Assembly (NCBI GenBank): GCA_943356495.1
Contig: CALRFF010000002.1
Coordinates: 12,596-76,595, forward strand
Source: Candidatus Nomurabacteria bacterium
GTDB lineage: Bacteria > Patescibacteriota > Minisyncoccia > Phycocordibacterales > SBAW01
Direction: 5' to 3'
DNA length: 64,000 nt
Shown: in pieces, positions 33,663 to 53,419 of the stretch
Layout: every line of letters begins with the position of its first letter
Numbering within the stretch: the first letter of the stretch is position 1
Program-made: the position numbers and the translations under genes
Notes under the pieces: generated by a model
The model's database searches: none
What the model was told of the DNA's origin: nothing
The model's input: the letters and a program-made list of their open reading frames with translations, nothing else

Positions 33663-33971
33663 ATGACCAAAAATCCTTTTATAAACGCGGGGGCGGCGGC
33701 TGTGTATATCGGGGGAGTGGTGCTGTTCATCAGCTCCTTGCCCGGCCCTGACCCCGACACGGTGCTTATGCCTATCACTATGCTGTCGCTCTTGGTGCTC
33801 TCGGTGCTTGCTATGACATACTTCTTTTTCCTTGTGCCGGTGCAGCTGTATTTCGACGGGCATAAAAAAGAGGCCGTGAGCCTTTTTACACAAACAACGG
33901 CCATCTTCGCCGTCTTTGTGGCCGCGCTCCTCGGCGCACTCTTGTTATTTATTTCCTACTCGACGGTTTAA
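33663..33971 (+). CDS. Small polytopic membrane protein (start uncertain: 33615, 33648 or 33663)
   Basis: Three predicted TM helices; no recognisable domain. Confidence 0.4.
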   Translation: MTKNPFINAGAAAVYIGGVVLFISSLPGPDPDTVLMPITMLSLLVLSVLAMTYFFFLVPVQLYFDGHKKEAVSLFTQTTAIFAVFVAALLGALLLFISYSTV

Positions 33972-37104: not shown

Positions 37105-37106
37105 TT

Positions 37107-37832
37107 ATGTTAAAGAAAAAAAGCTTAGGTCAACATTTTTTAAACGCGCAAAGTTATTTGCGTGCCGTTGCCGACGCGGCAGAGATCGCGGCGGGGGAGC
37201 GCGTGCTTGAGATAGGCCCCGGCGAAGGCGCACTGACCGCGGTGTTGCTCGAGCGCGGCGCGCATGTAACCGCTATCGAAAAAGATTCCCGCCTGATACC
37301 CCTGCTTAAAGAAAAATTCGCCGGCAAGAAATTTGAAGTGGTAGAAGACGATGCGTTAATGTATGAACCACAGTTACAAAACTATAAAGTAGTGGGGAAT
37401 ATCCCGTACTATATTACCGGCGCATTACTGAAGAAATTTCTTTCCGGCGAGGTACAGCCGAGCGCCTTAGTGTTCTTGGTACAAAAAGAAGTTGCCGAGC
37501 GCATTGCGCGGTCAACAAAAGAAAGCATTCTCTCGCTTTCGGTAAAAGCATACGGGGAACCTACATATATTAAGACCGTGCCGGCGGGAGCATTTTCTCC
37601 GCCGCCCAAAGTAGACTCGGCGATTCTGCGCGTTACCGGCGTATCAAGAAAAAACTTTGCAGACAAACAGCACGAAGCGCGTTTTTTCGAACTCCTTAAA
37701 AAAGGATTCGGGCAGAAGCGAAAACTGTTGAAATCAAATCTCAAACCCCTGCTCGGCGAACGCGCCGAAGCATTGGGAGCTGTCCGTGCTGAAGATATAA
37801 GCCTAGGGGAGTGGCTAAAGTTGTCGGCTTAA
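37107..37832 (+). CDS. rsmA: 16S rRNA (adenine1518/1519-N6)-dimethyltransferase
   Basis: LGQHFL.. N-terminus, SAM motif LEIGPGEGALT, VVGNIPYYIT; start at MLKKKSLGQHF internal Met. Confidence 0.85.
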   Translation: MLKKKSLGQHFLNAQSYLRAVADAAEIAAGERVLEIGPGEGALTAVLLERGAHVTAIEKDSRLIPLLKEKFAGKKFEVVEDDALMYEPQLQNYKVVGNIPYYITGALLKKFLSGEVQPSALVFLVQKEVAERIARSTKESILSLSVKAYGEPTYIKTVPAGAFSPPPKVDSAILRVTGVSRKNFADKQHEARFFELLKKGFGQKRKLLKSNLKPLLGERAEALGAVRAEDISLGEWLKLSA

Positions 37833-38182: not shown

Positions 38183-39076
38183 ATGAGCCTTCAGACATAC
38201 CTGCCCAGTGCAAAATTTGCCGTCATGGCGGGGGCGATAGCACTCTCGGGCGGGTTAGTGGTAGCGGCGCAGTATGTAACCAACCCCGCGCCCAGTACTG
38301 CGGGGCTTAGCGCCGAAGCGCAGGCGGCCCAAGCGGCGCAGTCGGCAAACTGGCAGCAGGTCTTGCGCGACATAGAGTCCCAGTCGGGTATTAAAGCGCC
38401 CGAGGCGCCCAGTACCGACACGGTTAACGCCCTGCTTACCGCGGCGCAAAGCACTAATCTTACAACCCAAGTAGGCAGAACCTTGCTGGTAAGCCTTAGT
38501 AACGCCAACGCCCAAGGGCTTGGCAGCGATATCCCGACACAAGAGCAGCTCATTGCCGAAGCAACCGCCCAGCTCGACGCGCAAGCAAGCGGGCCGGCAT
38601 ATGCAGTAGGCGATTTGCAGATAACAGTCCAAAGCAGCGCGTCGGTGCGAGCCTATGGCAACGCCATAATGAAGGCACTTAACGCTCACGGCGGCGCGAG
38701 CGCCCAAAACACCTATCTTGCGATAGGCGCTATCACCGACTCCCAAAATGCCGCGGCTATTGCGGAGCTAAAAACAATAGGGGCGGCGTACCGTGCGCTT
38801 GCCGAGGCTATTGCCGAAACCCCCGTACCCCAAACCTACTCTCCGTTGCACCTACAACTCGCCAACGACTTTGCCGCTATCGCCGCAAGCTATCCGGACA
38901 TGCAAACCATGCTCGACGACCCACTGCGCGGACTTGCGGGGGTGCAGCGCTACAGCGCTCTTATTGACGAAGCGAGGCGCGTGTTAACAAACATCGCTCA
39001 GTTATTGAGTAAAGACGGTATACTTTTCAGTAAAGACGAGCCAGGCGCTGCCTGGAGCGGCTTGCTTGCCACGTAA
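38183..39076 (+). CDS. Operon gene 1: membrane-anchored Ala/Gln-rich protein of unknown function
   Basis: N-terminal TM helix (AVMAGAIALSGGLVVAA), 297 aa, no recognised domain. Confidence 0.55.
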   Translation: MSLQTYLPSAKFAVMAGAIALSGGLVVAAQYVTNPAPSTAGLSAEAQAAQAAQSANWQQVLRDIESQSGIKAPEAPSTDTVNALLTAAQSTNLTTQVGRTLLVSLSNANAQGLGSDIPTQEQLIAEATAQLDAQASGPAYAVGDLQITVQSSASVRAYGNAIMKALNAHGGASAQNTYLAIGAITDSQNAAAIAELKTIGAAYRALAEAIAETPVPQTYSPLHLQLANDFAAIAASYPDMQTMLDDPLRGLAGVQRYSALIDEARRVLTNIAQLLSKDGILFSKDEPGAAWSGLLAT

Positions 39077-39081
39077 CTTTC

Positions 39082-41046
39082 ATGAACCGACGAACCCTTA
39101 TCACTATCCTGATCGCGGTCCTTGTGGCCGTCGTCATCGGGGCGCTGTGGTTGTGGTTTTTTAGAGGGGTCGGGACCGCGCCAGCGCCGCAAACAGGCTC
39201 CTTCGGCACCGGACAAACCCGCAATACCGGAACCACCGGCGCAAGCACCACGCCCACCAACATACCGAGCTCTATCGGACAGACGACTTCTACGGGAGGG
39301 TCAGTTACCCAAAGCGGCATTTATGTTTCGGGTATAACCGGCGGCGGCGCAGGCACCACCACAGGCGCCGCTGCGGTGCCCGGCGTTAGTTGGCTGGCGG
39401 GGGGCGCGGGCGGGATAAGCGGCGGATCGGGTACCGCATTTAACCCCAGCACCATAAACCAACTTAACAACGGACAGGTGGGCGGGAGCGTTAATGTGCT
39501 GGGCACCTTTACTACCCCGGGCGGGAGCAGCTCCGGCGGGGGAGGTCTCGGCATCGGCGGCTCGGCGGCCATTATCGCCGGCACTGCGGTCGCTTGCACC
39601 GCATTTTTACTGGGCGGAGCCGCCGGCATGTTTACCAGCTCGTCGTTTGTCGCCGTACAAGTTAACGCACCCACCGACAACAATAAAAAGTTTATGGACT
39701 GCATCGCGCGCACTATTGCGCGCGCGGCGATACAGCAAATAACGGCAAGCGTCGTCAACTGGATAAACTCCGGATTTAACGGCAAGCCCTCCTTTGTCAC
39801 CAACTACCAAAGCTTTTTTGCGAACGTGGCCGACCAAGCGGCGGGAGAGTTTATAAAAACGCAGACCAACTTTGCGCCGTACTGCACCCCGTTCCGCACG
39901 CAAATACAAATAGCGCTCGCCCAAAGCTACGCGCGCCGCAACAACGCGCAGTCGTGTACCCTTTCTACTTTATTAAGCGGTACAGGCATAAACCTATTCG
40001 GTAAAAACACGGGGGGCACTACCGGTTGGGGAAATTTTATCTCCTTTACCACCGTACCGAGCAACAACCCCTACGGCTCCTACATGAGCGCGCAGGCACA
40101 ACTGCAAAGCACGCTCTTGCAAGCAAACCAAAATGCTAATCGCAACATTTCTACCGGCGGGTTCCTTAACTTCCAGCAGCCGTACGATTGCCAAGCCACC
40201 GTGCCGCAGGCGGGAGAAACAGCGGGCACTAATGGCGGCGGAGGTGCGGGGGGCAGTATAAACTTCGGCGGCTCATCACAAAACTACGGCTATTCCTGCC
40301 CGTCCAACTGCAAGTGCAAAATTACGACTCCCGGAGGCATTATCGAAAGTTCATTAAGCAAAACGCTCAGCGTGTCGCAAGACACGCTTACGCAGGCGGG
40401 CATCTCGGGCAGTTTTGACGCTATTATCAGCGCGCTTATAAGCCAATTGATGACCCGCGCGCTCCAAGGCGGCGTGTCTAACCTTAGCGGCACCAGCGGC
40501 TATGCTTCGTACTACCTGACCGCCGACCAGCAGGCGGCGCAAACAAACGGGCAAGGGCTCCTTACCCAACTGCAAGGGTTGGTGGTAATGGCGCAGCAGT
40601 TCGGACAAAACAAGCAGGGCAGCGCGCAGGATATACAAAATGCGCAGAGCCAACTTAATGGCCTTGCCAACTGCTGGCAAACGGCCGCGTCCTCGACGGC
40701 ACTTACCGATACCAAACAAAATATCGCCTTCAACAACGCGCAGAACGCGCTTGCAACATTGCGCTCTTACGACGGGCAAATTGACAGTATCAACGGCCAG
40801 ATAACCCGGGCCAACGCGGCCGTGGCGCTGTTGCAAGACCTACAGACTCGTACGCTCGGCGTCGGTTCGACGGCAGAGGTGTCGGCTATACAAAACGCGC
40901 TTGCCGCCGCCGAGGCGCGGGGCGGTATCATAGGACAAGCGGACATTACCACCGCGGCGCAAGACCGCACGACTCTGCAATCGCAGCTAAACTCTCTCAG
41001 CAGAACAGTAGACTCGCAGCTCTCCCAATGCTATGCGTTCCAATAA
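39082..41046 (+). CDS. Operon gene 2: large surface protein with TM anchor, Gly/Thr-rich linker, Cys-containing globular region and C-terminal Gln-rich coiled coil
   Basis: 654 aa; N-terminal TM (LITILIAVLVAVVIGALWLWFF); paired cysteines; no recognised domain. Confidence 0.6.
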   Translation: MNRRTLITILIAVLVAVVIGALWLWFFRGVGTAPAPQTGSFGTGQTRNTGTTGASTTPTNIPSSIGQTTSTGGSVTQSGIYVSGITGGGAGTTTGAAAVPGVSWLAGGAGGISGGSGTAFNPSTINQLNNGQVGGSVNVLGTFTTPGGSSSGGGGLGIGGSAAIIAGTAVACTAFLLGGAAGMFTSSSFVAVQVNAPTDNNKKFMDCIARTIARAAIQQITASVVNWINSGFNGKPSFVTNYQSFFANVADQAAGEFIKTQTNFAPYCTPFRTQIQIALAQSYARRNNAQSCTLSTLLSGTGINLFGKNTGGTTGWGNFISFTTVPSNNPYGSYMSAQAQLQSTLLQANQNANRNISTGGFLNFQQPYDCQATVPQAGETAGTNGGGGAGGSINFGGSSQNYGYSCPSNCKCKITTPGGIIESSLSKTLSVSQDTLTQAGISGSFDAIISALISQLMTRALQGGVSNLSGTSGYASYYLTADQQAAQTNGQGLLTQLQGLVVMAQQFGQNKQGSAQDIQNAQSQLNGLANCWQTAASSTALTDTKQNIAFNNAQNALATLRSYDGQIDSINGQITRANAAVALLQDLQTRTLGVGSTAEVSAIQNALAAAEARGGIIGQADITTAAQDRTTLQSQLNSLSRTVDSQLSQCYAFQ

Positions 41047-43519
41047 ATACATAATTTATTTTTTTGCGCTCGTGGCGCTTATAGTGGCCCCCGTGAGCCT
41101 GACTTCTTACAAGGGCACCTTAAAAATTGAGCCTGCAAAAGTCCAGGCTGCCGTTATTTGCAAACAAGGGGGGAGTTTTACTTCTTTTCCGAGCACTTGT
41201 CCCTTTGGCTTTACCAATGCTTCAGAAAGCGAGTCCGCTGCTTATACAAACAATCCCGCGAACGCAGCCGACTTGGCCCGTACTAAAAAAGCGGAGACTG
41301 ACCCATATGGCACAGCCAACAATGCTTGTTCAGGCCTCACCGGATGTCTTGCTTGGGTTATGTATTGGATAGGCCCCGGCTTTGCTTCGTGGGTAGCCTC
41401 AATAGCAGCTTTTTTCTTTAATTACATAGTCAAGATTTCTCTCAACAGCACCGCCTATGCGCTCGGGTTTTTGACCACCAGCTGGAGTTTAGTACTCAAC
41501 CTCGCCAACATGTTCTTTATTTTTATTCTCATATATACCGCGTTCGTAATTATGCTGAAGGCGGAGACCACGCGCACCATGCAAACACTGGCGTGGGTTA
41601 TCGCAATCGCGCTGGTGGTTAACTTTAGCTTTTTCTTTACGCGCGTAGTGATAGACGCGGGGAATATTCTTGGCGTACAGTTTTACAACGGCATCATCGC
41701 ACAACCTAATATAGCAGGGGTGACTATCACCAACGAGCCAAATGCGCCTGTTGATATCACACGCGGCATCATGCAAGCGCTCGGGGTAGAAAAACCACTT
41801 ACACAACAAGGATTTACAAACGCACAGGCAGTAACAGGCAACAATGCATGGAGCACTCTACTTGTTTTAACAGTCGTATTTCTCTCTACCGCGGTCATGT
41901 TTTGGATGCTCGCGCTTGGACTGATAATGATTGCCATCAAGTTTCTTATCCGTATTGTAGGATTATGGCTCGTGCTTATCGCCTCACCGATCGCTTTTGT
42001 TTCTAAAACACTACCAAAAACCCAACATTTTTTTGAGATGTGGTTGCGAACGCTGGTAAGCTTTGCCTTCTATCCGGCGATATTTCTCTTTATGTTCTAC
42101 GTACTCAACATGTTTGTGGCGGACCTTGCAGGCAACAAATTGTTTGCGGCACTCTCAAGTAAGCAGGGCATGGCAACAGATTTAAATCCATTGCCGCTTA
42201 TCGCCCAACTTGCGGAAATATTTATCCGCATGGGATTCCTTATCGTCATGATGTACATCATGCTTAAGGTTGCCGATTGGATTATGGACCAAGCCGGCGG
42301 TATGGCGGGCACGATTATGAACAAAGCGAGTGGGGCTATTTTGGGCGGCGGCTTCCGTGGAGCCGGAGTTGCACTTCGTGCCACGTCAGCGACTGGTGCA
42401 TTTGCTGGACGTAACGTAGGAGGTCGCGGAGCATTTGCGACACTACAAAATTCAACAATTAAATCTTGGGAAGGACAGAGTGGCCTGCGCGGTACTTTGT
42501 GGCGCGGCCTCACAGGTGTCAGCAAAGGTACTTGGGATATACGTAACGCCCCTGGTGGCAGCATATTGAAAAAAGCCACCTCAAAAATCGTAGGCGATGT
42601 CAATGTTGGTACTGCAAGTAAACGTAACTTTGCCAAAACAGTCGCCGACAAGGCCAAGCGTGACGAAGAACGTGGAAAGACCCTTAAAGCGTCCGAAGGG
42701 GAAATCTGGAATGCACAACAAGACTTCCAAAATAGGTATGATACACGAAACGGCCCAGGTTCCTACACAACCAGAATAAACGACCTACAGACACGTATGC
42801 GAATGGCGCGGGAGGAGGCTGTGCGACAGCACGCTAGAGCAGCTCTCGACCCAGCAGGAGCGGCAGGATTTAAAGCACTCGCTAGAACTAACGAGAATGA
42901 AGAAAGACGGCTGGCTGGAGAACTTAAAAACCATACCGAGCAAGGTAAGAAAATCGCAGAAGATTTTGCAAAAACACGCATAATGCAATTTGCCGATAGG
43001 CTCGATAAGAGAAATGTTGAGGGTAATATGTTTAATCCGTCATGGGGTCATGTCGAAGGCGCTGCGCGACTCAGAAAACTGGTTGAAGGAAAAACTTCTA
43101 CCCAAAAAATTAAGGATGCTGTGAAAGAAGCCACTGAAGAAGATGGTGATGATCACCCGCCAGCGGGAGGTGGCGGTGCAGGAGGTGGAGGACATGGCCC
43201 CACAGCACCGGCAGGAGGAGCACATGGTGCGGGCGGAGGAGGTTCGGCCTTTACCAAAGCGGCCGGTACTGAGCATGCGCTTGCCGACGCAATAAGAGAG
43301 GCCAGCGAAAAAACACATAAAGACTTTAAGAATTTGGAGAAAAGTCTGCATGAAGCTGCGGGGAGTAACGGACCTGCCCATGTTCCCACAACAGAGCCCA
43401 CTCTCAATGTTAAAAAAATGAGCCAAAACATCGCCGACCGTCTTGGCGAACATCTGCAGCCGGGTAATACGCCGCCTACTACCCCCAAGCCGCCCGAAAA
43501 ACCGGAAGAGAAGAAATAA
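41033..43519 (+). CDS. Operon gene 3: VirB6/TrbL-like polytopic membrane protein with signal peptide, extracellular Cys domain, ~8 TM helices and Gly-rich cytoplasmic tail
   Basis: 828 aa; architecture (periplasmic N-domain, multi-TM core, long C-tail) is the VirB6/PrgH pattern; assignment by topology not motif. Confidence 0.5.
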   Translation: MRSNKYIIYFFALVALIVAPVSLTSYKGTLKIEPAKVQAAVICKQGGSFTSFPSTCPFGFTNASESESAAYTNNPANAADLARTKKAETDPYGTANNACSGLTGCLAWVMYWIGPGFASWVASIAAFFFNYIVKISLNSTAYALGFLTTSWSLVLNLANMFFIFILIYTAFVIMLKAETTRTMQTLAWVIAIALVVNFSFFFTRVVIDAGNILGVQFYNGIIAQPNIAGVTITNEPNAPVDITRGIMQALGVEKPLTQQGFTNAQAVTGNNAWSTLLVLTVVFLSTAVMFWMLALGLIMIAIKFLIRIVGLWLVLIASPIAFVSKTLPKTQHFFEMWLRTLVSFAFYPAIFLFMFYVLNMFVADLAGNKLFAALSSKQGMATDLNPLPLIAQLAEIFIRMGFLIVMMYIMLKVADWIMDQAGGMAGTIMNKASGAILGGGFRGAGVALRATSATGAFAGRNVGGRGAFATLQNSTIKSWEGQSGLRGTLWRGLTGVSKGTWDIRNAPGGSILKKATSKIVGDVNVGTASKRNFAKTVADKAKRDEERGKTLKASEGEIWNAQQDFQNRYDTRNGPGSYTTRINDLQTRMRMAREEAVRQHARAALDPAGAAGFKALARTNENEERRLAGELKNHTEQGKKIAEDFAKTRIMQFADRLDKRNVEGNMFNPSWGHVEGAARLRKLVEGKTSTQKIKDAVKEATEEDGDDHPPAGGGGAGGGGHGPTAPAGGAHGAGGGGSAFTKAAGTEHALADAIREASEKTHKDFKNLEKSLHEAAGSNGPAHVPTTEPTLNVKKMSQNIADRLGEHLQPGNTPPTTPKPPEKPEEKK

Positions 43520-43540
43520 TTACCCCTAACCACAAGGCTT

Positions 43541-44092
43541 ATGGACACTACCGTTGCAGCACAAATAGAAAAACGCCTTGCCGAGCTCCCTGAAGACGTC
43601 CGCGCGGCTGTTATGTCGGTCGAGTGGGAAGAAAAGGTACGACAGATAGCCGGCAAACACGCCTTGCATATAGACCAGACCGGCGCGCTGGGCGACACCA
43701 CTCTTATGGCGATGCTCGGGTTCTTCGATATGGCCGACTTTCCGGTCCATCTCACTGAGGAGCTTAAAATACCTACTGATCAAGCCGCCGCCATAGGGGG
43801 AGAGATAACGGCTGAGGTCTTCAGACCCATACGCGAGTCGCTCAAAAAGTTTACCGAAGGAAACAAAGCGACTATACCCGCTCCGACGGCACCCAAACCC
43901 GACCTTGTAGCCGCCGAGGCCATGTTACAAGCCAAAACAGTGAGTGCACCCGCTCCGGCGGTGCCCGCCCAACCCGTAGTACCCCAAAAAACTGTCCCTA
44001 CAGCGGCGCCTGTCATGCCGCCAATAGCAAAACAAGAGCCGCCGAAGCCCGGCGCGTATGCCGCCGACCCGTACCGCGAGCCGCCGCTATGA
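43541..44092 (+). CDS. Operon gene 4: soluble protein with Pro-rich C-terminus, unknown function
   Basis: 183 aa, no TM, no recognised domain. Confidence 0.5.
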   Translation: MDTTVAAQIEKRLAELPEDVRAAVMSVEWEEKVRQIAGKHALHIDQTGALGDTTLMAMLGFFDMADFPVHLTEELKIPTDQAAAIGGEITAEVFRPIRESLKKFTEGNKATIPAPTAPKPDLVAAEAMLQAKTVSAPAPAVPAQPVVPQKTVPTAAPVMPPIAKQEPPKPGAYAADPYREPPL

Positions 44093-44116
44093 AAACCTAC
44101 GCTATACTTGTAAGTA

Positions 44117-44557
44117 ATGGCGCAGTACCAAGTACCCCAGTTTATTGAGGTTGAGGATAAGATTTTCGGCCCCCTGACGCTCAAGCAATTTATCTATCTT
44201 GCCGGCGGGGCGGGGATATGTCTTATGTTCTTTACGCTTCTGCCGTTTTGGCTGATGTTTATCTTGTCTGTACCGGTTATGTCCTTTTCGGCGGCACTCG
44301 CCTTTTACAAAATAAACGGGCGGCCGTTTATCGTGGCGCTTGAGCATGCGGCATCATATACCTTTGGCAGCAAGCTTTATTTGTGGAAGCAGCGCGAGGC
44401 AAAAGCCAGTACCGAAGTGCAAAACGCCCCCGCGACAGCTGCGCCGGTGCCCAGACTCTCTAACAGCAAGCTTAAAGATCTGTCGTGGTCGCTCAATATT
44501 AAAGACCGCAACCAAATGGGCGTCACGTCGACGGAGCGCAGCGGGTTTGAAGTCTAA
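44117..44557 (+). CDS. Operon gene 5: PrgI-family (VirB3-like) two-TM protein
   Basis: N-terminus YQVPQFIEVEDKIFGPLTLKQFIYLAGG followed by two TM helices, the PrgI/VirB3 signature; sits immediately upstream of VirB4 as in Gram-positive T4SS. Confidence 0.6.
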   Translation: MAQYQVPQFIEVEDKIFGPLTLKQFIYLAGGAGICLMFFTLLPFWLMFILSVPVMSFSAALAFYKINGRPFIVALEHAASYTFGSKLYLWKQREAKASTEVQNAPATAAPVPRLSNSKLKDLSWSLNIKDRNQMGVTSTERSGFEV

Positions 44558-44562
44558 TTACT

Positions 44563-45216
44563 ATGGCTACCAATACCTCTCCACAAGTTACGGCGCAGGC
44601 AACACAGGACTTTGTGCCTATAAAAGAGGTGCGCGACGGCATTGTAATACTTAAAGACGGCTCCCTACGGTCACTACTTATGGCGTCGAGCATCAACTTG
44701 GCGCTCAAGTCGCAGGACGAACAACAGGCGATTATCGGGCAATTTCAAAATTTTCTTAACTCGCTGGAGTTTACAGTGCAGTTTTTTGTCCAAAGCCGCG
44801 AGTTGGACATACGCCCCTATATCGCCCTGCTTGAAGAGCGGTTGGTGGCCGAGCTTGATGACCTGATGAAGATACAGATACGCGAGTACATTACCTTCAT
44901 TAAAGACTTTACCGAGCGGGCCAATATTATGACTAAAAACTTTTTTATCGTCGTGCCGTACGACCCCGCGCTTATCGCGCGCGGTACGGGCATCGCATCG
45001 TTTATCCCCGGGAGAGGCAGTTCTTCGACCACGCTTACCGACGAGCAGTTTGAGCAGTACCGCACCCAGCTCGAGCAGCGTATCGCCGTTATCGAGCAGG
45101 GGCTGGTGCGCACGGGCGTGCGCGTAGTGGGCCTAGGGACCGAAGAGGTGATAGAGCTCTTTTACAAACTCTTTAACCCCGGCGAACTAGAGAAGCCGCT
45201 GCAGCTCGTTAAATAA
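44563..45216 (+). CDS. Operon gene 6: VirB4 N-terminal-domain-like protein (separate ORF)
   Basis: FVPIKEVRDGIVILKDGSLRSLLMASSINLALKSQDEQQAIIGQF matches the extreme N-terminal region of Gram-positive VirB4/TrsE-type ATPases; stop TAA at 45214-45216, next ATG at 45218 in another frame. Confidence 0.55.
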   Translation: MATNTSPQVTAQATQDFVPIKEVRDGIVILKDGSLRSLLMASSINLALKSQDEQQAIIGQFQNFLNSLEFTVQFFVQSRELDIRPYIALLEERLVAELDDLMKIQIREYITFIKDFTERANIMTKNFFIVVPYDPALIARGTGIASFIPGRGSSSTTLTDEQFEQYRTQLEQRIAVIEQGLVRTGVRVVGLGTEEVIELFYKLFNPGELEKPLQLVK

Positions 45217-45217
45217 T

Positions 45218-47035
45218 ATGAAAGGCTTTGACTTCTTAAAATACAAGCACGCGCCCGAGCAACCGTCGCAGATGGCGCCTATACTCCCCGAGCAGATATA
45301 CAAGCAGGGAGTCTTGGAGCTGCAAGACGTCATAGCCCCCAGCGCGCTTAAGATAACCCCGCGCGAGATAAACTTAGGCGACAAAATCGCCCGCACCTTC
45401 TTTGTGATGTCGTACCCGCGCGTCCTTACCGACAGCTGGTTCGGGCCAATCATCAACCTCGACCGCGTGCTCGATGTGTCTATTTTTATCCACCCCATCG
45501 ACTCGGCCGAGATACTGAAGAAGTTTCAAAAAAAAGTTGCCGAGGTACAAAGCCAGATTATGGCTCGGGAAGAAAAGGGTATGGTCCGCGACCCGATACT
45601 CGACACCGCCTACAAAGACCTCGAAGACTTGCGCGACCAGCTGCAGCAGGCGCAGGAGCGCATCTTTGACGTCGGCGTGTACATCACCATCTACGGCACG
45701 ACGGTCGAAGACCTGGACAAGGCCGAGTCCGAAATTAAGTCCATGCTCGAGTCGCGTCTGGTGTACGTAAAGCCGGCGCTCTTCCAGCAAGAGCAGGGCT
45801 TTAAGTCGGTGCTGCCGCTGGGCCACGACGAGCTCGGCGTAAATTCAAAGCTTAACTCTTCGCCGCTTTCGAGCATCTTCCCGTTTGTGTCCTTTGACCT
45901 CACTTCTGACAAGGGGATTCTCTACGGCGTTAACCGTCACAACGCGTCGCTCGTGCTCTTTGACCGCTTTAGCCTCGAGAACTACAACTCCGTTATCTTT
46001 GCCAAATCGGGCTCGGGCAAAAGCTATGCGACCAAGCTCGAAATACTGCGTACCCTGATGTTTGATACCGAGGTTATTGTTATCGACCCCGAGCGCGAGT
46101 ACGAGTTCCTTAGCCAAACGGTAGGGGGGCGGTACTTCAACATTTCGCTCAACTCAGAAAACCATATCAACCCGTTCGACCTGGCCGCCCCGCGCGAGGA
46201 CGAGTCGCCCGCCGACGTATTGCGCAGCAACATTGTGGCGTTGGTAGGTATGTTCCGCATTATGCTCGGCGGGCTCACCCCCGAGGAGGACGCCATCATG
46301 GACAAGGCAATTACCGAAACCTACGCGCTCAAAGATATTACGGTGGACAGCAACTTTGCCGAGATAGAGCCGCCGCTCCTTTCTGACTTCGAATTGGTGC
46401 TTGCGGGCATGCAGGGCAGCGAATCGCTGGTGCAGCGCCTTAGTAAGTACACCAAAGGCACGTGGGCCGGGTTTATTAACCAGCCGACCAACGTCGACTT
46501 AAACAAAAAGTTCGTCGTCTTTTCGGTGCGCGACATGGAAGACGACCTTAAACCGGTCGCGATGTATCTGATTACGCATTACATATGGAACGCGGTGCGC
46601 AAAAATCTTAAAAAGCGTCTGCTGGTTATCGACGAGGCATGGTGGATGATGAAGTCCGACGACACGGCGTCGTTTCTATACGGCATGGCCAAGCGCGGAC
46701 GCAAATACTTTCTTGGGCTTGCAACCATTACCCAAGACGTAGATGACTTTTTAAAGTCGCCGTACGGCCTGCCGATGATTACCAACTCTTCTATCCAAAT
46801 ACTGCTCAAGCAGTCGCCCACAACCATCGACACGCTGCAAAAAACCTTTAACCTTTCCGACGAAGAAAAATATCTACTGCTTGAGTCTGACGTAGGAGAG
46901 GGGATATTTTTTGCGGGGCTTAAGCATGTTGCCATCAAAGTCATAGCCTCGTACACCGAAGACCAGATAATTACCTCCGATCCCTCCCAAGTACTGGCGC
47001 TTAAGCGCGCACGGACCGAAGGCTCGGCACAATAA
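45218..47035 (+). CDS. Operon gene 7: VirB4-family type IV secretion ATPase
   Basis: Walker A AKSGSGKSYATK, Walker B LLVIDEAWWMM, VirB4 middle-region motifs (RTFFVMSYPR, DVSIFIHPI); 605 aa. Confidence 0.85.
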   Translation: MKGFDFLKYKHAPEQPSQMAPILPEQIYKQGVLELQDVIAPSALKITPREINLGDKIARTFFVMSYPRVLTDSWFGPIINLDRVLDVSIFIHPIDSAEILKKFQKKVAEVQSQIMAREEKGMVRDPILDTAYKDLEDLRDQLQQAQERIFDVGVYITIYGTTVEDLDKAESEIKSMLESRLVYVKPALFQQEQGFKSVLPLGHDELGVNSKLNSSPLSSIFPFVSFDLTSDKGILYGVNRHNASLVLFDRFSLENYNSVIFAKSGSGKSYATKLEILRTLMFDTEVIVIDPEREYEFLSQTVGGRYFNISLNSENHINPFDLAAPREDESPADVLRSNIVALVGMFRIMLGGLTPEEDAIMDKAITETYALKDITVDSNFAEIEPPLLSDFELVLAGMQGSESLVQRLSKYTKGTWAGFINQPTNVDLNKKFVVFSVRDMEDDLKPVAMYLITHYIWNAVRKNLKKRLLVIDEAWWMMKSDDTASFLYGMAKRGRKYFLGLATITQDVDDFLKSPYGLPMITNSSIQILLKQSPTTIDTLQKTFNLSDEEKYLLLESDVGEGIFFAGLKHVAIKVIASYTEDQIITSDPSQVLALKRARTEGSAQ

Positions 47036-47037
47036 TT

Positions 47038-47625
47038 ATGAAAGGCTTTTTACTTATACTTTTTGCACTGTTCATAGACGGCTTACAGGCCATGCTTATG
47101 CTTGTCTTTACGGTCATGCAGTTTGTCACGCCTATTGGAGGTGGAATTGCCGGTGCTTTGGCGGCCGGGCAGTATTGCTGGAGTATCTCTTCAGGTATTT
47201 TTAGCGGCGCTTACAGTTGGGCCTCATGCGCGCTAACTGGTGGGGTTGTAGGTGCAGGGGTGAGTGCTTTTGCTATACCTATAGGCGTCGCTGTCGATGT
47301 AGCCATAACTATTACCTTCGGTGGCGTGTTGGTTATGGTGCTGGCATGGATGGGGATGTTTTACCCCGGTACCGTATTGGGAGTCTTTTTTGGAGAGTCT
47401 ATTCCGATTATTAACATCTTGCCCGGCTGGACACTGATGACCTGGCGCTGCTTGCACAAAAAGAATCAGGAAGAAAAAGATAAGCGTAAAGGTTTTAGCG
47501 GAGCAATGCCGGGAGTGTCGCTCAACGCTGTGCCGGGCCGCGAGGACACTGCGTTTGAAAAAGCCCAATGGGCCACGCGTAGAATCAACGACTCCCGCCA
47601 GGTAGACGGTATACGTCATGCATAA
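47038..47625 (+). CDS. Operon gene 8: Gly-rich polytopic membrane protein
   Basis: 195 aa, 4-5 predicted TM helices; unknown family. Confidence 0.5.
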   Translation: MKGFLLILFALFIDGLQAMLMLVFTVMQFVTPIGGGIAGALAAGQYCWSISSGIFSGAYSWASCALTGGVVGAGVSAFAIPIGVAVDVAITITFGGVLVMVLAWMGMFYPGTVLGVFFGESIPIINILPGWTLMTWRCLHKKNQEEKDKRKGFSGAMPGVSLNAVPGREDTAFEKAQWATRRINDSRQVDGIRHA

Positions 47626-48640
47626 CTTCCGCCCTATATTTTTTATACTTGCCGCCCTGCTGTATGCGGGTACCGTACACGCGCAAGGCTCGGGCGTGGA
47701 CCCGGTGCAGTACATTATTGCGCCGGAAACTCCGGGGCCCAATGCTCCGGTGCAGATAACCGTACAAGGGGTGGGGAGCTTCCTCGGTGACGCAACCATC
47801 ACCTGGAGCGTGGGCGGCAAAACGGTTGCGAGCGGCACGGGTTTAGCCGCGTTTAGCTTTACCACCGGCGAGCTGGGCACGCAGAGTATAGTGCGCCTTA
47901 CTATCAGCTCGGCAACGCAAGGGCTTATTACGCGAACCTTTACCTTTACGCCGTCGGTCATCAACCTTGTATGGGAGGCGGACACCTCGGTACCGCCGCT
48001 TTTTGCCGGCAAGGCGCTGTACAGCGCAGGCTCTCCGCTGCGGGTGGTGGCCTTTCCGACCGTTATTGTGGCGGGTAAAAAAGTTGCCGCCGAAAGTCTG
48101 TCGTACCAATGGTCGGTAAACGAGCAGCCGGTGCCCGCGTTGTCGGGCACCGGCAAACATATACTGACCTACACGGGCGACCAGTTACAAAGCGCCGAGG
48201 TGGTGTCGGTGGAGGTATATTTTGGGAGTCTAAAGGTCGGGCGCGCCGAAATTGCCGTACCCGCAAGTGAAACACAGGTGCTGTTGTACCACAAAGATGC
48301 ACTGCGCGGAGTCGTGTGGGACAACAGTATGCCCGCAAGCATTGCGCTCGGAGGAAAAGAGCTTACGCTGCAGGCACAGCCGTACTTTTTTGCCAACACC
48401 GCATTAAAAGGCGGCGCGGTGTCATGGACATGGACACTCAACGACGAGGTGGTTACCGGCCCCGACTCGGCAAAAGGCCTGCTTACCCTGCGCCAAACCG
48501 GCGAAGGGAAGGGGAGCGCGTCACTTACGGTAGAGCTGCAAAACCAAAACTCATCGCAGTTGGTGCAGTCGGCAAAAACGATACTTAGTATTATCTTCGG
48601 CAGCGCGCAATCGGGCTTTTCTTCCTTCTTCGGCCTATGA
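47618..48640 (+). CDS. Operon gene 9: secreted beta-rich protein
   Basis: Signal peptide (LAALLYAGTVHAQG), 340 aa, Thr/Ser/Val-rich. Confidence 0.55.
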   Translation: MHNFRPIFFILAALLYAGTVHAQGSGVDPVQYIIAPETPGPNAPVQITVQGVGSFLGDATITWSVGGKTVASGTGLAAFSFTTGELGTQSIVRLTISSATQGLITRTFTFTPSVINLVWEADTSVPPLFAGKALYSAGSPLRVVAFPTVIVAGKKVAAESLSYQWSVNEQPVPALSGTGKHILTYTGDQLQSAEVVSVEVYFGSLKVGRAEIAVPASETQVLLYHKDALRGVVWDNSMPASIALGGKELTLQAQPYFFANTALKGGAVSWTWTLNDEVVTGPDSAKGLLTLRQTGEGKGSASLTVELQNQNSSQLVQSAKTILSIIFGSAQSGFSSFFGL

Positions 48641-49146
48641 AATATCTAACCAAAGAAAAAATACAGGGAATACTGCTGGCGGGGATTACATACACTCCGC
48701 TTGAGCCCTTCCCCAACGCCACGACGGCCACATACAACTCACTCGGCCTGTATCTTAATTTTGTGTTTAAGATTTTGCTTTCTTTGGGGGCCATGGTGGC
48801 AGTAGTAACGCTCGTATTCGGAGGCATAGCCTACATGGTGTCCGAAATTGCGGACAAAAAAACCGAGGCAAGAAAACGCATACAGGCGGCACTCCTCGGG
48901 CTCTTTCTGCTACTGACTTGCTGGCTCATTTTGTATGAAATCAACCCAAATCTGGTTAAATTCTGTCTACCCGGTCTCGACGCCGCTTGCCAGGGGGCTA
49001 TGGCTCCCTCCACTGCGCGCCCTGCCGCCCAGCCTTCGACCGCAAGTGTTGCCCCGAAGCCAGACAACGCAGACAAGGCTGATTGTGAGTCGGTAGCCGG
49101 CAGAACCTTGCATGCAACCGGTCCGGGCACGTGGGAATGCAGATAA
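48637..49146 (+). CDS. Operon gene 10: VirB2/TrbC-like pilin candidate
   Basis: Two hydrophobic helices flanking a short charged loop (SEIADKKTEARKR), the T-pilin topology, preceded by a leader region; 169 aa with Cys-containing tail. Confidence 0.45.
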   Translation: MKYLTKEKIQGILLAGITYTPLEPFPNATTATYNSLGLYLNFVFKILLSLGAMVAVVTLVFGGIAYMVSEIADKKTEARKRIQAALLGLFLLLTCWLILYEINPNLVKFCLPGLDAACQGAMAPSTARPAAQPSTASVAPKPDNADKADCESVAGRTLHATGPGTWECR

Positions 49147-49150
49147 CATT

Positions 49151-50392
49151 ATGAACAAAACGTACCTATATTACATCGGGGGGACCATAACAGCAGTAGT
49201 AATTTCAGGCGTACTTGCGTTCTTTATTTTCTCGAACGGCCCGGCGACACAAACACAAGGACCGGCCGGTAGTGGTTTCGGCTCAACTGAAAATACAACA
49301 ACTAACGCCGGGGCCTCCGGCACTAACGGAGGGGCAGGGGGAGTGTCACAAAATACCGGCGCGCAAACCTCTCAGCAAAAAATATTCAAAATTTCAGACG
49401 GCCCGGTCGCAGGCGCCACGTTTGTACAGACACTGCGCCCCACGACAACCCTGGCGCGCTTTGTAATGGCAGAAAATGGTCACACGTTCGACCTGGTACT
49501 CGACTCGCAAGGCGCGGTTCCTAAAGCGCTATCCAATACCACTATCCCCGGCGCCCAGAGTACGCTTTGGGTAGAAAAAGGCAATGCCACTGTATTGCAA
49601 TACCTCGACGGTACAACGCCTAAAACTGTGTACCTTGGATTTGCAACAAGTAGCGCTTCTACCAACCCGATCGTGCGCCTGCAGTTTTATCCAGACGGCA
49701 TCGTGTCGTTTGCGGGTTCGCCCGACGGAACGCAGGTTGCCTATCTGTTGCGCACCGCAAGAGGGGTGGACGCCTACACAGCAAAAACGGACGGCACCCA
49801 AGGCAAACGGCTCTTTTCGCTCCCGCTCTCAGAGGTGCAGCTGCGCTGGCCGGCGCAAGGCACCTTGCTTGCACATACCAATGCCGCTGTCGGCGTGCCG
49901 GGGATTGCCTTTGCCATAGACGCAAAAACGGGCGTAGTAACCCCGCTCGTATATGCGCCGGGGCTGACCGCAACAGCCGACCTCACTTTTGACCATGTGA
50001 TGTACCAAACCACACCAGCTAGTTCCGGTATGCGGGCAACCTACTCGCGCGAGGTCAGCTCGGGCACCAACCGTGCGCTTTCATTTGATCCCTACCCGGA
50101 GAAATGTATACAGAGCCCGCGCGCCGCAACCGTACTGTATTGTGCAACTCCGCTCGACTACGTAGCTACAACCTACCTTGATATGTGGCACCAGGGTGCA
50201 GCGAGCACTGCAGACAGTGTTATTTCATTTGACCTTGTGGCAGGCACCTCGCAGATACTCGCAACGCCGGGTGGGGCCGAAGGGGGAGTGGCTACCGATA
50301 TGTTGCAGCTCGCAGCCTCGGGAGACGGGCGCTATCTGCTGTTTGTATCAAAATACGATCGCTCCCTGTGGGGCGTTAGGCTCCTGCCGTAG
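49151..50392 (+). CDS. Operon gene 11: membrane-anchored protein with Gly/Thr linker and TolB-like beta-propeller (PD40-type repeats)
   Basis: N-terminal TM, SPDGTQVAYL and SGDGRYLLFVS PD40-like repeats. Confidence 0.5.
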   Translation: MNKTYLYYIGGTITAVVISGVLAFFIFSNGPATQTQGPAGSGFGSTENTTTNAGASGTNGGAGGVSQNTGAQTSQQKIFKISDGPVAGATFVQTLRPTTTLARFVMAENGHTFDLVLDSQGAVPKALSNTTIPGAQSTLWVEKGNATVLQYLDGTTPKTVYLGFATSSASTNPIVRLQFYPDGIVSFAGSPDGTQVAYLLRTARGVDAYTAKTDGTQGKRLFSLPLSEVQLRWPAQGTLLAHTNAAVGVPGIAFAIDAKTGVVTPLVYAPGLTATADLTFDHVMYQTTPASSGMRATYSREVSSGTNRALSFDPYPEKCIQSPRAATVLYCATPLDYVATTYLDMWHQGAASTADSVISFDLVAGTSQILATPGGAEGGVATDMLQLAASGDGRYLLFVSKYDRSLWGVRLLP

Positions 50393-51842: not shown

Positions 51843-51977
51843 TTAGGCTGAGAGGCGAGCGCGGCCCTTGCGGCGGCGGCGGGCAAGCGTAGCGCGGCCT
51901 GCGGGGGTAGCCGCGCGCTTAAGAAACCCGTGGGAACGGGCCCGTTTGCGCTTTTTGGGCTGGTACGTTTGTGACAT
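51843..51977 (-). CDS. rpmH: 50S ribosomal protein L34
   Basis: 44-aa ORF absent from ORF track: [44 protein letters not shown]. Confidence 0.85.
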
Positions 51978-52075
51978 GTGTCAACTATACCGTATCCCCA
52001 GTTTCTCCACAACAAGTGCACACCTGTAGGAATTTTGACGGACGGGGCAATGGCGCGTATTCTTTAATAACTTCA

Positions 52076-53419
52076 ATGACAACCACAAAAGAACTTTGGG
52101 AAAACGCACTGGTAGAGCTCGAGCTCACCATATCGCGCCCGAACTTTAATACGTGGTTCCGTGACACACACATTACGCGCTTTGAGGAGGGGGTAGTATA
52201 CCTTGGCGTCCCGTCGCAGTTTGCCCGCGACTGGCTTTCCTCTAAGTTCCATAAGGATATTCTGCGGAGCCTGCGCGTGCTCTCGGAAAGTGTCCGCAAT
52301 GTCGAGTATGTTATTTCGCGCGGCCCCAAACGCACAGAGGAACCGCGCACCGTACCGCCCCCCGTTACCGAGCTGCCGCTCGAGCCGGTGCATGCTCGCA
52401 CCAACCTCAACCCACGTTTTACCTTTAACAATCTGGTGGTTGGGCCGTTTAATGAGCTCGCAAATGCCGCTGCACAGGCCGTAGTACGCAAACCGGGCAT
52501 CGCGTACAACCCCTTACTGGTCTACGGACCGACCGGGTTGGGCAAAACACACCTCGTGCAGGCTATCGGCAATCACTTCCGCCTCCAAGCGCCCGACCGC
52601 AAGGTGTATTACGTCACTTCGGAAAAGTTTTCTATGGACTATGTCTCCGCTCTACAGGAGGGGGGCGGCAAAATAACAAGCTTTAAAGAAAAATACCGCC
52701 AGTATGACCTGCTTATTATGGACGATGTACAGTTTTTGGCCGGGCGCGACAAGATAAAAGAAGAGTTCTTCCACCTCTTTAACTACCTGCACGACAACAA
52801 CAAGCAGTTGGTCTTTTCTTCCGACCAGCACCCAAACGTCATACAAAACCTTGAAGACCGCATAAAAAGCCGTCTCTCGGCCGGCATGATCGTCTCAGTA
52901 ACGCCCCCAGACCACCAGTCGCGCTTGGCAATCGTGCGGGCTAAGGCCTCCGCACATAACTTTATTCTTGCCGACGAGGTGCTGGAGTATTTAGCTACCA
53001 CTATTGCGGGCAATGTACGCGAGCTCGAGGGCGCGCTTAACACGCTTTTGTGCCAATTTGAGATGCGGGGGACGCCGCTGTCGCTTGCAGACGCTAAAAC
53101 ACTCCTACGAGGCTCCGGCGCCACACAAAAGAAGGCGGTGTCGGTGCAGGAAGTGGTTAAAACGATAGCCAACTTTTACGGAGTAGAGGAGGGGAGTATT
53201 TACGAAAAGACGCGCCGCAAAGAGGTAGTGCGCCCCCGGCAAGTCATTATGTTTTTGTTGCGGGAAGACTTCCGTATTTCCTTCCCCACTATAGGAGAGA
53301 AGCTCGGCGGCCGAGACCACACCACCGTCATACACTCCTGCGACAAAATAAAGAACGATTTACGCCAAGACAGCATACTTTCCAACGAACTCCACCAAAT
53401 TCGCCTCATGTTGAAATGA
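52076..53419 (+). CDS. dnaA: Chromosomal replication initiator DnaA
   Basis: AAA+ Walker A GPTGLGKTHL, box VII, C-terminal DnaA-box-binding HTH; start at MTTTKELW. Confidence 0.9.
   Translation: MTTTKELWENALVELELTISRPNFNTWFRDTHITRFEEGVVYLGVPSQFARDWLSSKFHKDILRSLRVLSESVRNVEYVISRGPKRTEEPRTVPPPVTELPLEPVHARTNLNPRFTFNNLVVGPFNELANAAAQAVVRKPGIAYNPLLVYGPTGLGKTHLVQAIGNHFRLQAPDRKVYYVTSEKFSMDYVSALQEGGGKITSFKEKYRQYDLLIMDDVQFLAGRDKIKEEFFHLFNYLHDNNKQLVFSSDQHPNVIQNLEDRIKSRLSAGMIVSVTPPDHQSRLAIVRAKASAHNFILADEVLEYLATTIAGNVRELEGALNTLLCQFEMRGTPLSLADAKTLLRGSGATQKKAVSVQEVVKTIANFYGVEEGSIYEKTRRKEVVRPRQVIMFLLREDFRISFPTIGEKLGGRDHTTVIHSCDKIKNDLRQDSILSNELHQIRLMLK

What the first reader, a model, noticed from the sequence alone, without database searches (positions are those of the whole stretch)
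44563..47035. VirB4 appears split into a 217-aa N-terminal-domain ORF and a 605-aa ATPase ORF separated by TAAT-ATG in different frames
ORF 44563-45216 carries the sequence pattern of the extreme N-terminus of Gram-positive VirB4-type ATPases (FVPIKEVRDGIVILKDGS...LALKSQDEQQAI). The next ORF starts 2 nt later in another frame and carries the rest (RTFFVMSYPR...Walker A...Walker B). Together they make 822 aa, a normal VirB4 size. This is either a genuine two-polypeptide VirB4, a programmed +1 frameshift, a recent pseudogenising frameshift, or an assembly error. A frameshift would disable the only ATPase of the operon.
Basis: partly seen in the sequence, partly recalled or inferred. Interest (0 to 1): 0.55.

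Follow-up and report, generated by a model that had tools for sequence, protein, structure and literature searches.

The report
Separate TrsD-like and VirB4 genes
The apparent "split VirB4" is the normal, already described gene pair of the Patescibacteria type IV secretion system, a small TrsD/TraC-like protein followed by a shorter VirB4 ATPase, and it is not a frameshift, pseudogene or assembly error.

Summary
ORF A (44563-45216, 217 aa) ends in TAA, one base follows, and ORF B (45218-47035, 605 aa) starts in the +1 frame. ORF A is homologous to the N-terminal ~215 residues of single-chain monoderm VirB4 proteins. ORF B carries the rest, with Walker A and B motifs.

The split is ancient and conserved, not a lesion. 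In 78 of 80 related species genomes the two genes are separate and adjacent. The stop-to-ATG spacing runs from -14 to +442 nt (median 4), and all three relative frames occur. That rules out a recent frameshift, programmed frameshifting and assembly error. The identical 217-aa protein occurs on 10 contigs; in the two places shown, from different samples, the 1-nt junction is the same. Firmicutes plasmids carry the same PrgI / TrsD-like / VirB4 trio.

A naturally fused 797-aa form in Candidatus Colwellbacteria confirms collinearity. Pfam (PF26593 TraC-like), NCBIfam (TrsD/TraD) and a 2025 paper (PMC12102498) already describe this component as the commonest T4SS protein of Patescibacteria.

Verdict: real, functional and already known; low interest. 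The unresolved part is what TrsD does. My inference is that it is a trans-acting VirB3-docking module of VirB4.

The parts
44563..45216 (+). TrsD / TraC-like protein (217 aa). It is a stand-alone homologue of the first ~215 residues of single-chain monoderm VirB4.
   Evidence: NCBIfam TrsD/TraD E 6.8e-10, plus N-termini of the CD1110 and Mbov_0397 VirB4 models. Precomputed Pfam family PF26593 TraC-like. At least 8000 homologues; the best 120 are all 200-228 aa stand-alone proteins. 39% identity to residues 5-214 of the fused 797-aa Colwellbacteria protein. AlphaFold model pLDDT 82.6; the top 14 Foldseek PDB hits are all TrwK/VirB4 chains, E 1e-4 to 6e-3, and the next hit is E 0.2.
45214..45220 (+). 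Gene junction TAA-T-ATG: stop of the TrsD-like gene, 1 nt, then the start of virB4 in the +1 frame.
   Evidence: The same kind of junction (-14 to +12 nt) occurs in 64 of 78 orthologous loci, in all three relative frames. The B frame is open upstream only back to 45191.
45218..47035 (+). VirB4 ATPase, short form (605 aa): second half of the VirB4 N-terminal region plus the RecA-like ATPase domain.
   Evidence: NF045971 CD1110 family, 383.8 bits (cut-off 325), profile positions 175-733 of 752. Pfam P-loop_TraG, AAA_10 and DUF87. Residues 231-587 match the 4AG5 VirB4 C-terminal domain (E 1.9e-41) and residues 115-553 match TrwK 288-735. Walker A at 46001-46024 and Walker B at 46619-46636.
44117..44557 (+). 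PrgI / VirB3-like small membrane protein (146 aa), ending 5 nt upstream of the TrsD-like gene.
   Evidence: Pfam PF12666 PrgI, E 1.9e-10. The same PrgI / TrsD-like / VirB4 order is seen in Clostridium botulinum pCBG. PrgI-like and TrsD-like parts are fused in one ORF in L078.
41033..43519 (+). 828-aa protein with many long hydrophobic stretches and a low-complexity C-terminal tail; presumed VirB6-like channel subunit (inferred).
   Evidence: No significant family hit. The assignment rests on the hydrophobic stretches visible in the translation (read by eye, no topology prediction run) and on its position. A 780-aa hypothetical protein sits at the equivalent position of the Pontibacillus cluster. 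The literature reports VirB6 homologues in these clusters.
48637..49146 (+). VirB2-like T4SS pilin (169 aa).
   Evidence: Pfam PF18895 T4SS_pilin, E 1.1e-8.
38183..50392 (+). Whole tightly packed T4SS gene cluster: 11 same-strand ORFs with junctions of -14 to +24 nt. It lies between ksgA (36969-37832) and the origin-region genes R3H/jag, yidC, rnpA and rpmH (minus strand) and dnaA (51971-53419).
   Evidence: Synteny near dnaA/rnpA/rpmH/ksgA is as described for Paceibacteria in PMC12102498.

Best explanation
Two genuine, separately translated genes of a chromosomal monoderm-type (MPF-FATA-like) type IV secretion system in a Patescibacteria (Paceibacteria / Adlerbacteria-like) genome. ORF A is a TrsD / TraC-like protein, the free-standing counterpart of the first ~215 residues of single-chain VirB4. 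ORF B is the remaining VirB4: the rest of the N-terminal region plus the Walker A/B ATPase domain. The fission is ancient and under purifying selection. The two cistrons are packed stop-1 nt-start, like every other junction in the operon, so they are co-transcribed and probably translationally coupled (inferred). Inferred mechanism: the TrsD-like protein binds in trans to the VirB4 hexamer and to the PrgI/VirB3-like membrane protein encoded just upstream. It thereby supplies the membrane-docking module that single-chain VirB4 proteins carry in cis. The ATPase then energises assembly of, or transport through, the VirB6-like channel and VirB2-like pilus.
For: SHOWN. (1) Anatomy. (2) Collinear homology: A matches CD1110 positions 2-117 and B matches positions 175-733. 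Gram-negative VirB4/TraC profiles only start matching B at profile position 269, which leaves an N-terminal part about the size of A unaccounted for in B. (3) A natural fusion P0248 (797 aa) occurs as three members from three Colwellbacteria contigs. A residues 11-211 align to P0248 5-214, and B residues 31-595 align to P0248 226-791. (4) Conservation of the split: 78 of 80 species loci have a separate A (210-232 aa) and B, gap -14 to +442 nt, relative frames 43/22/13, A identity 63-93%. The top 120 homologues are all 200-228 aa. Only 1 of the 150 best 50%-cluster representatives is full length. (5) Reproducibility: the identical protein is on 10 contigs. The two places shown, an ENA and an NCBI sample whose neighbouring genes differ, have the same 1-nt junction. 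(6) The same trio occurs in Firmicutes plasmids: Pontibacillus (275 aa + 622 aa 'CD1110 family' VirB4) and C. botulinum pCBG (PrgI, 258-aa 'TraC family protein', 621-aa ATPase), each pair overlapping by 11 nt. (7) Fold: the top 14 PDB hits are all TrwK/VirB4. (8) Literature: TrsD is remotely homologous to the VirB4 N-terminus, is the most abundant T4SS component in Patescibacteria (2,272 homologues, 1,664 beside virB4), and is listed as essential in Ca. Southlakia epibionticum ML1 (PMC12102498). INFERRED: trans-assembly and VirB3 docking. The support is the conserved PrgI / TrsD / VirB4 order, a single PrgI-TrsD fusion ORF in L078, and, from my own knowledge, the R388 cryo-EM structures in which VirB3 wraps the VirB4 N-terminal domain.
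Against: No biochemical function is assigned to TrsD anywhere. The ORF A score on the NCBIfam TrsD/TraD model (39 bits) is far below its curated cut-off (200), so it is a distant relative and not a member of that narrow subfamily. Foldseek gives no target coordinates, so the structural match to the N-terminal part of TrwK specifically is inferred from collinearity. TM-scores are modest (0.47-0.56). A profile of ORF A homologues finds no PDB sequence. The PrgI-TrsD fusion is a single locus and could be an indel artefact. Physical interaction of A with B or with PrgI was not tested.
Confidence: 0.93

Rival explanations
1. A recent pseudogenising frameshift in a formerly single-chain virB4, which disables the ATPase.
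For: The two ORFs are collinear with single-chain VirB4 proteins and lie in different frames 1 nt apart.
Against: 78 of 80 related species have the same two ORFs with intact ATG starts aligned to B residue 1, 63-93% protein identity, and varied gaps and frames. Both ORFs are full length and the catalytic motifs are intact. No close relative among the 80 loci is fused.
Confidence: 0.01
2. A programmed +1 ribosomal frameshift produces a single 822-aa VirB4.
For: B is in the +1 frame relative to A, and the B frame is open for 8 codons upstream of its ATG (45191-45217).
Against: Among orthologues the relative frame is 0 (13 loci), +1 (43) and +2 (22). Gaps reach 442 nt, and in three loci an unrelated ~120-aa ORF is inserted between the genes. 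There are stop codons in every frame and no conserved slippery motif. B always has its own ATG at the homologous position.
Confidence: 0.01
3. An assembly or sequencing indel error at the junction.
For: The assemblies holding this sequence are metagenomic, and these can carry indels; the 80 related loci are MAG-derived.
Against: The identical 217-aa and 605-aa proteins are recorded on 10 and at least 4 contigs. The two places shown, ENA ERZ27280196 and NCBI GCA_943354885.1, differ in neighbouring genes yet share the same junction. The junction class is reproduced in 78 other genomes.
Confidence: 0.01
4. ORF A is an unrelated accessory protein, and VirB4 proper simply starts at 45218.
For: My Pfam copy gives no hit for A. 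A profile of A homologues finds no PDB sequence. Short VirB4 proteins of ~600-670 aa are annotated as complete in Firmicutes.
Against: There are significant HMM matches to the N-termini of two full-length VirB4 families. A aligns at 39% identity over 211 residues to the N-terminus of a fused VirB4. The structural hits are exclusively TrwK/VirB4. The precomputed Pfam family is named TraC-like.
Confidence: 0.04

Closest known systems
TrsD + VirB4 pair of the Patescibacteria T4SS (Quinonero-Coronel et al. 2025, Microb Genom, PMC12102498; Ca. Southlakia epibionticum ML1, Wang et al. 2023)
   Same: It has the same components (PrgI/VirB3-like, TrsD-like, VirB4, VirB2-like pilin, large multi-TM protein). 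The TrsD homologue lies next to virB4. The chromosomal location is the same, near dnaA, rnpA, rpmH and ksgA.
   Different: Nothing substantive; this locus is one more example. I did not run the paper's CONJScan TrsD profile, so membership rests on NCBIfam and Pfam hits and on homology to annotated Patescibacteria proteins.
TrsD/TrsE of staphylococcal pGO1/pSK41 and TraD/TraE of pIP501 (NCBIfam NF041427 TrsD/TraD family)
   Same: A small ~200-aa protein is encoded immediately upstream of a short VirB4 ATPase. ORF A matches model positions 12-142 of 201 at E 6.8e-10.
   Different: ORF A scores 39 bits against a curated cut-off of 200, so it is a distant relative outside that subfamily. Those systems are plasmid conjugation machines with a relaxase. 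The Patescibacteria system is chromosomal, usually lacks a relaxase, and includes a pilin.
Single-chain monoderm VirB4 (CD1110 family of CTn2, Mbov_0397 family of Mycoplasma ICEs) and the 797-aa Colwellbacteria VirB4
   Same: A followed by B is collinear with these proteins over essentially their whole length.
   Different: Here the N-terminal ~215 residues are a separate polypeptide. The break falls in a poorly conserved linker: an ~11-residue linker in the fused form, and the first 30 residues of B are unaligned.
TrwK/VirB4 of R388 (PDB 7O41, 7O42, 7O43, 8RTB, 8RTD)
   Same: ORF B aligns by sequence to TrwK 288-735. The ORF A model matches only TrwK chains by fold.
   Different: Identity is 13-17% with TM-scores around 0.5. 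TrwK is a single chain in a diderm system. The VirB3-VirB4 contact seen there is my basis for the inferred role of ORF A; it was not tested here.
VirB3-VirB4 fusions of some Gram-negative systems (recalled from memory)
   Same: They show that domain boundaries at the VirB3 / VirB4 N-terminus interface are evolutionarily plastic. L078 shows a PrgI-TrsD fusion ORF.
   Different: The event goes in the opposite direction, fusion rather than fission. This comparison was not examined with the tools.

Membership tests
VirB4 ATPase (monoderm, CD1110-type) | Whole-protein score above the curated cut-off of the family model | tested here: met
   ORF B scores 383.8 bits on NF045971 against a cut-off of 325, E 1.6e-114.
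VirB4 ATPase (monoderm, CD1110-type) | Walker A and Walker B motifs in a RecA-like C-terminal domain homologous to solved VirB4 structures | tested here: met
   AKSGSGKS at residues 262-269 and LLVIDE at 468-473. Residues 231-587 match 4AG5 at E 1.9e-41.
VirB4 ATPase (monoderm, CD1110-type) | Full-length coverage of the model, including N-terminal positions 1-175 | tested here: not met
   ORF B covers positions 175-733 only. Positions 2-117 are matched by ORF A. The single-chain architecture is therefore absent, and the pair together covers the model.
TrsD/TraD family (NCBIfam NF041427) / Pfam PF26593 TraC-like | Significant match to the family model | tested here: inconclusive
   NF041427 gives E 6.8e-10 but only 39.1 bits, well below the cut-off of 200. 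PF26593 TraC-like is assigned in precomputed annotations to this exact protein and to all 120 top homologues, but that model is not in my Pfam copy.
TrsD/TraD family (NCBIfam NF041427) / Pfam PF26593 TraC-like | Stand-alone ~200-aa protein encoded directly upstream of a short virB4, downstream of a PrgI/VirB3-like gene | tested here: met
   The same arrangement is seen in 78 of 80 related loci and in Firmicutes plasmids.
TrsD/TraD family (NCBIfam NF041427) / Pfam PF26593 TraC-like | Homology to the N-terminal portion of VirB4 | tested here: met
Patescibacteria T4SS (PMC12102498) | Co-occurrence of VirB4, TrsD, PrgI/VirB3, VirB6 and a VirB2-like pilin, often near dnaA | tested here: met
   VirB4, TrsD-like, PrgI and T4SS_pilin have hits. 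dnaA, rnpA, yidC and ksgA flank the cluster. VirB6 is inferred only, with no family hit.
Patescibacteria T4SS (PMC12102498) | VirB4 falls in the Patescibacteria-specific clade of the VirB4 phylogeny | not tested
   No tree was built. The closest homologues are all Patescibacteria MAGs.
Frameshifted pseudogene | Orthologues in close relatives are a single uninterrupted ORF | tested here: not met
   None of the 78 informative related loci is fused.
Programmed ribosomal frameshift gene | Conserved frame relationship and conserved slippery/stimulatory site across orthologues, with no independent start for the downstream part | tested here: not met
   All three frame relations occur, gaps run from -14 to +442 nt, and an ATG is conserved at B residue 1.

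The most novel reading that the evidence does not exclude
The detached TrsD-like module may be more than a passive piece of VirB4. It could be a regulated adaptor whose separate synthesis lets the cell set how many VirB4 subunits are docked to PrgI/VirB3 at the membrane. This would parallel the two populations of VirB4 (VirB3-bound and unbound) in the R388 machine. In that reading it gates assembly or activity of a T4SS that is essential for the epibiotic life of Patescibacteria. The occasional re-fusions (Colwellbacteria TrsD-VirB4; L078 PrgI-TrsD) would then mark its two binding partners.
Probability: 0.25. Interest if true: 0.45.

Novelty: already known. Interest (0 to 1): 0.12.

Why it matters
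For annotation, it prevents a functional and probably essential T4SS ATPase from being flagged as a pseudogene or assembly error. It also shows that 'short' VirB4 genes should be read together with the upstream TrsD/TraC-like gene.

For biology, the locus is one more instance of the origin-proximal T4SS of Patescibacteria, which is essential for epibiotic growth in the one species tested. The function of TrsD is still unassigned. The fission and fusion pattern assembled here gives a concrete, testable hypothesis: TrsD is the trans-acting VirB3-docking domain of VirB4. The pattern comprises split forms in most Patescibacteria and some Firmicutes plasmids, TrsD-VirB4 fused in Colwellbacteria, and PrgI-TrsD fused in one genome. 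This refines what is known rather than adding a new kind of system.

Tried and rejected
- Pfam scan of ORF A at E up to 10 gave no hit, because PF26593 is not in the local Pfam copy. The family name came from precomputed annotation instead.
- Sequence searches of ORF A against PDB chains found nothing meaningful, either as a single sequence or as a 63-sequence profile. Only the fold comparison found TrwK.
- Frameshift, programmed frameshift and assembly error were considered and rejected on comparative evidence.
- I checked whether the 729-aa minus-strand ORF in L078 was the VirB4 orthologue. It is not. The real orthologue lies further upstream on the minus strand and carries an intein-like insert.
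- The 828-aa ORF gave no VirB6 family hit. Its assignment stays an inference.
Full report
**1. Observation**

The sequence is as described. ORF A runs 44563-45216 (217 aa, ATG start, TAA stop). A single T follows at 45217, and ORF B starts with ATG at 45218 and ends at 47035 (605 aa). B is in the +1 frame relative to A, and its frame is open upstream only back to 45191. ORF B contains Walker A (AKSGSGKS, residues 262-269) and Walker B (LLVIDE, residues 468-473).

**2. What the two ORFs are**

- ORF B is a VirB4 ATPase. It scores 383.8 bits on NCBIfam NF045971, 'VirB4-like conjugal transfer ATPase, CD1110 family' (cut-off 325), but covers only profile positions 175-733 of 752.
- ORF B has Pfam P-loop_TraG, AAA_10 and DUF87 domains.
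- ORF B residues 231-587 align to the crystal structure of the Thermoanaerobacter VirB4 C-terminal domain (4AG5, E 1.9e-41). Residues 115-553 align to TrwK 288-735.
- ORF A has no hit in my Pfam copy. It does match NCBIfam 'TrsD/TraD family conjugative transfer protein' (E 6.8e-10).
- ORF A also matches the N-terminal parts of two full-length VirB4 models: CD1110 positions 2-117 and Mbov_0397 positions 100-233.
- Precomputed annotations assign ORF A and all its top homologues to Pfam PF26593 'TraC-like'.

So A followed by B is collinear with single-chain monoderm VirB4.

**3. Independent confirmation of collinearity**

A profile-free scan of 1.84 billion cluster representatives found 2398 relatives of ORF A. 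Of the best 150, all but one are short proteins of 116-443 aa. The exception, P0248, has 797 aa. ORF A residues 11-211 align to P0248 5-214 (39% identity), and ORF B residues 31-595 align to P0248 226-791 (56% identity).

In that protein the two parts are joined by a linker of about 11 residues. P0248's cluster has three 797-aa members from three contigs. The two that carry a name are annotated as Candidatus Colwellbacteria MAGs, so the fusion is real.

An AlphaFold2 model of ORF A, built on a 63-sequence alignment, reached mean pLDDT 82.6. Its 14 best Foldseek matches in the PDB are all TrwK/VirB4 chains of the R388 T4SS (E 1e-4 to 6e-3, TM about 0.5). The next match is at E 0.2.

**4. Is the split a lesion or the normal state?**

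I fetched 80 loci from different species genomes that encode relatives of ORF A at 63-93% identity. I then located the stop of the A-like gene and the start of the B-like gene in each.

| Feature across the 80 loci | Result |
|---|---|
| Loci with a separate A-like ORF (210-232 aa) followed on the same strand by a B-like ORF | 78 |
| Start of the B-like ORF | ATG aligned to residue 1 of ORF B |
| Stop-to-ATG distance | -14 to +442 nt, median 4 nt |
| Loci with exactly 1 nt between the genes | 21 |
| Loci with a distance of 12 nt or less | 64 |
| Relative frame of B to A (0 / +1 / +2) | 13 / 43 / 22 loci |
| Fused loci | 0 |

The two exceptions are a contig that ends just after the A-like gene (L041) and a rearranged locus (L078).

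In three loci (L055, L068, L074) an unrelated ORF of about 120 aa sits between the two genes. A frameshift mutation, a programmed frameshift or an assembly error cannot produce this pattern.

The identical 217-aa protein is recorded on 10 contigs. The two places shown come from different samples (ENA ERZ27280196 and NCBI GCA_943354885.1). Their neighbouring genes differ, yet both have the same 1-nt junction. The top 120 of at least 8000 homologues in the 5.8-billion-protein set are all 200-228 aa.

**5. The junction is not special within the operon**

All ten junctions between the eleven same-strand ORFs from 38183 to 50392 are between -14 and +24 nt. Examples are 5 nt between the PrgI-like gene and ORF A, 2 nt between ORF B and the next gene, and overlaps of 4, 8 and 14 nt elsewhere. 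TAAT-ATG is simply how this compact operon is built. It is compatible with translational coupling, which is an inference.

**6. The arrangement outside Patescibacteria**

A tblastn search of ORF A against plasmids found 75 records, mostly from Firmicutes. Two were examined.

| Record | Genes in order | Junction between the A-like gene and the ATPase |
|---|---|---|
| Pontibacillus plasmid | 275-aa hypothetical protein (ORF A homologue), then a 622-aa 'VirB4-like conjugal transfer ATPase, CD1110 family' | 11-nt overlap |
| Clostridium botulinum pCBG | PrgI family protein, then a 258-aa 'TraC family protein' (ORF A homologue), then a 621-aa 'ATP-binding protein' | 11-nt overlap |

The split trio is therefore an old and widespread monoderm layout.

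**7. Literature**

Quinonero-Coronel et al. 2025 (PMC12102498) report several relevant points.

- TrsD is present in the pGO1 prototype subclass of MPF-FATA and has no assigned function.
- TrsD was the most abundant T4SS component found in Patescibacteria: 2,272 homologues, 1,664 of them associated with VirB4.
- The TrsD homologue of Ca. Southlakia epibionticum ML1 is listed as essential.
- In Paceibacteria these clusters lie near dnaA, dnaN, rnpA, rpmH and ksgA.

The window shows exactly that synteny. ksgA lies at 36969-37832, the T4SS cluster at 38183-50392, then R3H/jag, yidC, rnpA and rpmH on the minus strand, and dnaA at 51971. The finding is therefore an instance of an already described arrangement.

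**8. Mechanism (best-supported, partly inferred)**

What is shown: two separate conserved genes, A homologous to the VirB4 N-terminal module, and B an intact ATPase.

What is inferred: the TrsD-like protein associates in trans with VirB4 and with the PrgI/VirB3-like membrane protein. It thereby provides the membrane-docking function that the VirB4 N-terminus performs in cis in single-chain systems.

Support for the inference:
- The PrgI / TrsD / VirB4 gene order is invariant.
- Fusion cases link TrsD to VirB4 (Colwellbacteria) and to PrgI (L078, one 403-aa ORF whose residues 2-143 are 51% identical to the window's PrgI-like protein).
- From my own knowledge, the R388 structures show VirB3 wrapping the VirB4 N-terminal domain.

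No tool here tested protein-protein contact.

**9. Verdict**

The feature is functional, ordinary for its lineage and already published. Interest is low. The only open question is the unassigned function of TrsD.

Noticed in passing
L078 1-3240 (minus strand; CAYJVW010000020.1): The virB4 orthologue is interrupted in frame, inside the Walker A motif (..FAKSGAGK | SARWDAP ... GMFVHN | SYTTKLEIL..). The insert is about 570 aa and carries LAGLIDADG-like motifs (LLGWIASEGT, YLQAYFEGDGG). It is probably an intein with a homing endonuclease in the VirB4 P-loop.
   Followed up: partly
L078 3425-4636 (+): A single 403-aa ORF fuses a PrgI/VirB3-like part (residues 2-143, 51% identical to window 44117-44557) to a TrsD-like part. 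It is divergently oriented from virB4. This is either a Rosetta-stone hint that TrsD works with VirB3 or an indel artefact; only one case was seen.
   Followed up: partly
L055 4688-5087, L068 4315-4756, L074 4640-5050: An ORF of about 120 aa (YKDLxVWQK...IPSNIAEG...) is inserted between the TrsD-like gene and virB4 in three different genomes. From memory it resembles the four-helix-bundle '23S rRNA intervening sequence protein' family. This was not checked against a family library.
   Followed up: no
P0248 / P0271 / P0272 (Candidatus Colwellbacteria, 797 aa): A naturally fused TrsD-VirB4 single chain occurs within Patescibacteria, in three contigs. Whether this is ancestral retention or a secondary re-fusion is unknown.
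   Followed up: partly
P0148, P0152, P0182 and other 300-443-aa representatives: Some TrsD-like proteins carry long low-complexity, Pro/Gln/Ala-rich C-terminal tails of 100-230 residues after the conserved ~210-aa core.
   Followed up: no
window 39082-41046 and 41033-43519 (+): The 654-aa protein is Gly/Thr/Ser-rich with one N-terminal hydrophobic segment. The 828-aa protein has many long hydrophobic stretches and a Gly/Ala/Pro-rich tail. Neither has a family hit. In a strain with an identical TrsD-like protein the second one is 743 aa and the pilin is 306 aa instead of 169 aa (L084), so these surface parts vary while TrsD and VirB4 stay identical.
   Followed up: partly
window 47038-47625 (+): A 195-aa Gly/Ala-rich hydrophobic membrane protein lies directly after virB4, with no family hit. 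It is 153 aa in L084. It may be a second pilin-like or VirB2-like protein.
   Followed up: no
window 33968-35050 (-): A LysM + Peptidase_M23 protein lies about 3 kb upstream of the T4SS cluster on the opposite strand. It is a candidate for the cell-wall hydrolase (VirB1-like) role discussed for Patescibacteria T4SSs. The Pontibacillus plasmid cluster has a DD-metalloendopeptidase right after virB4.
   Followed up: no
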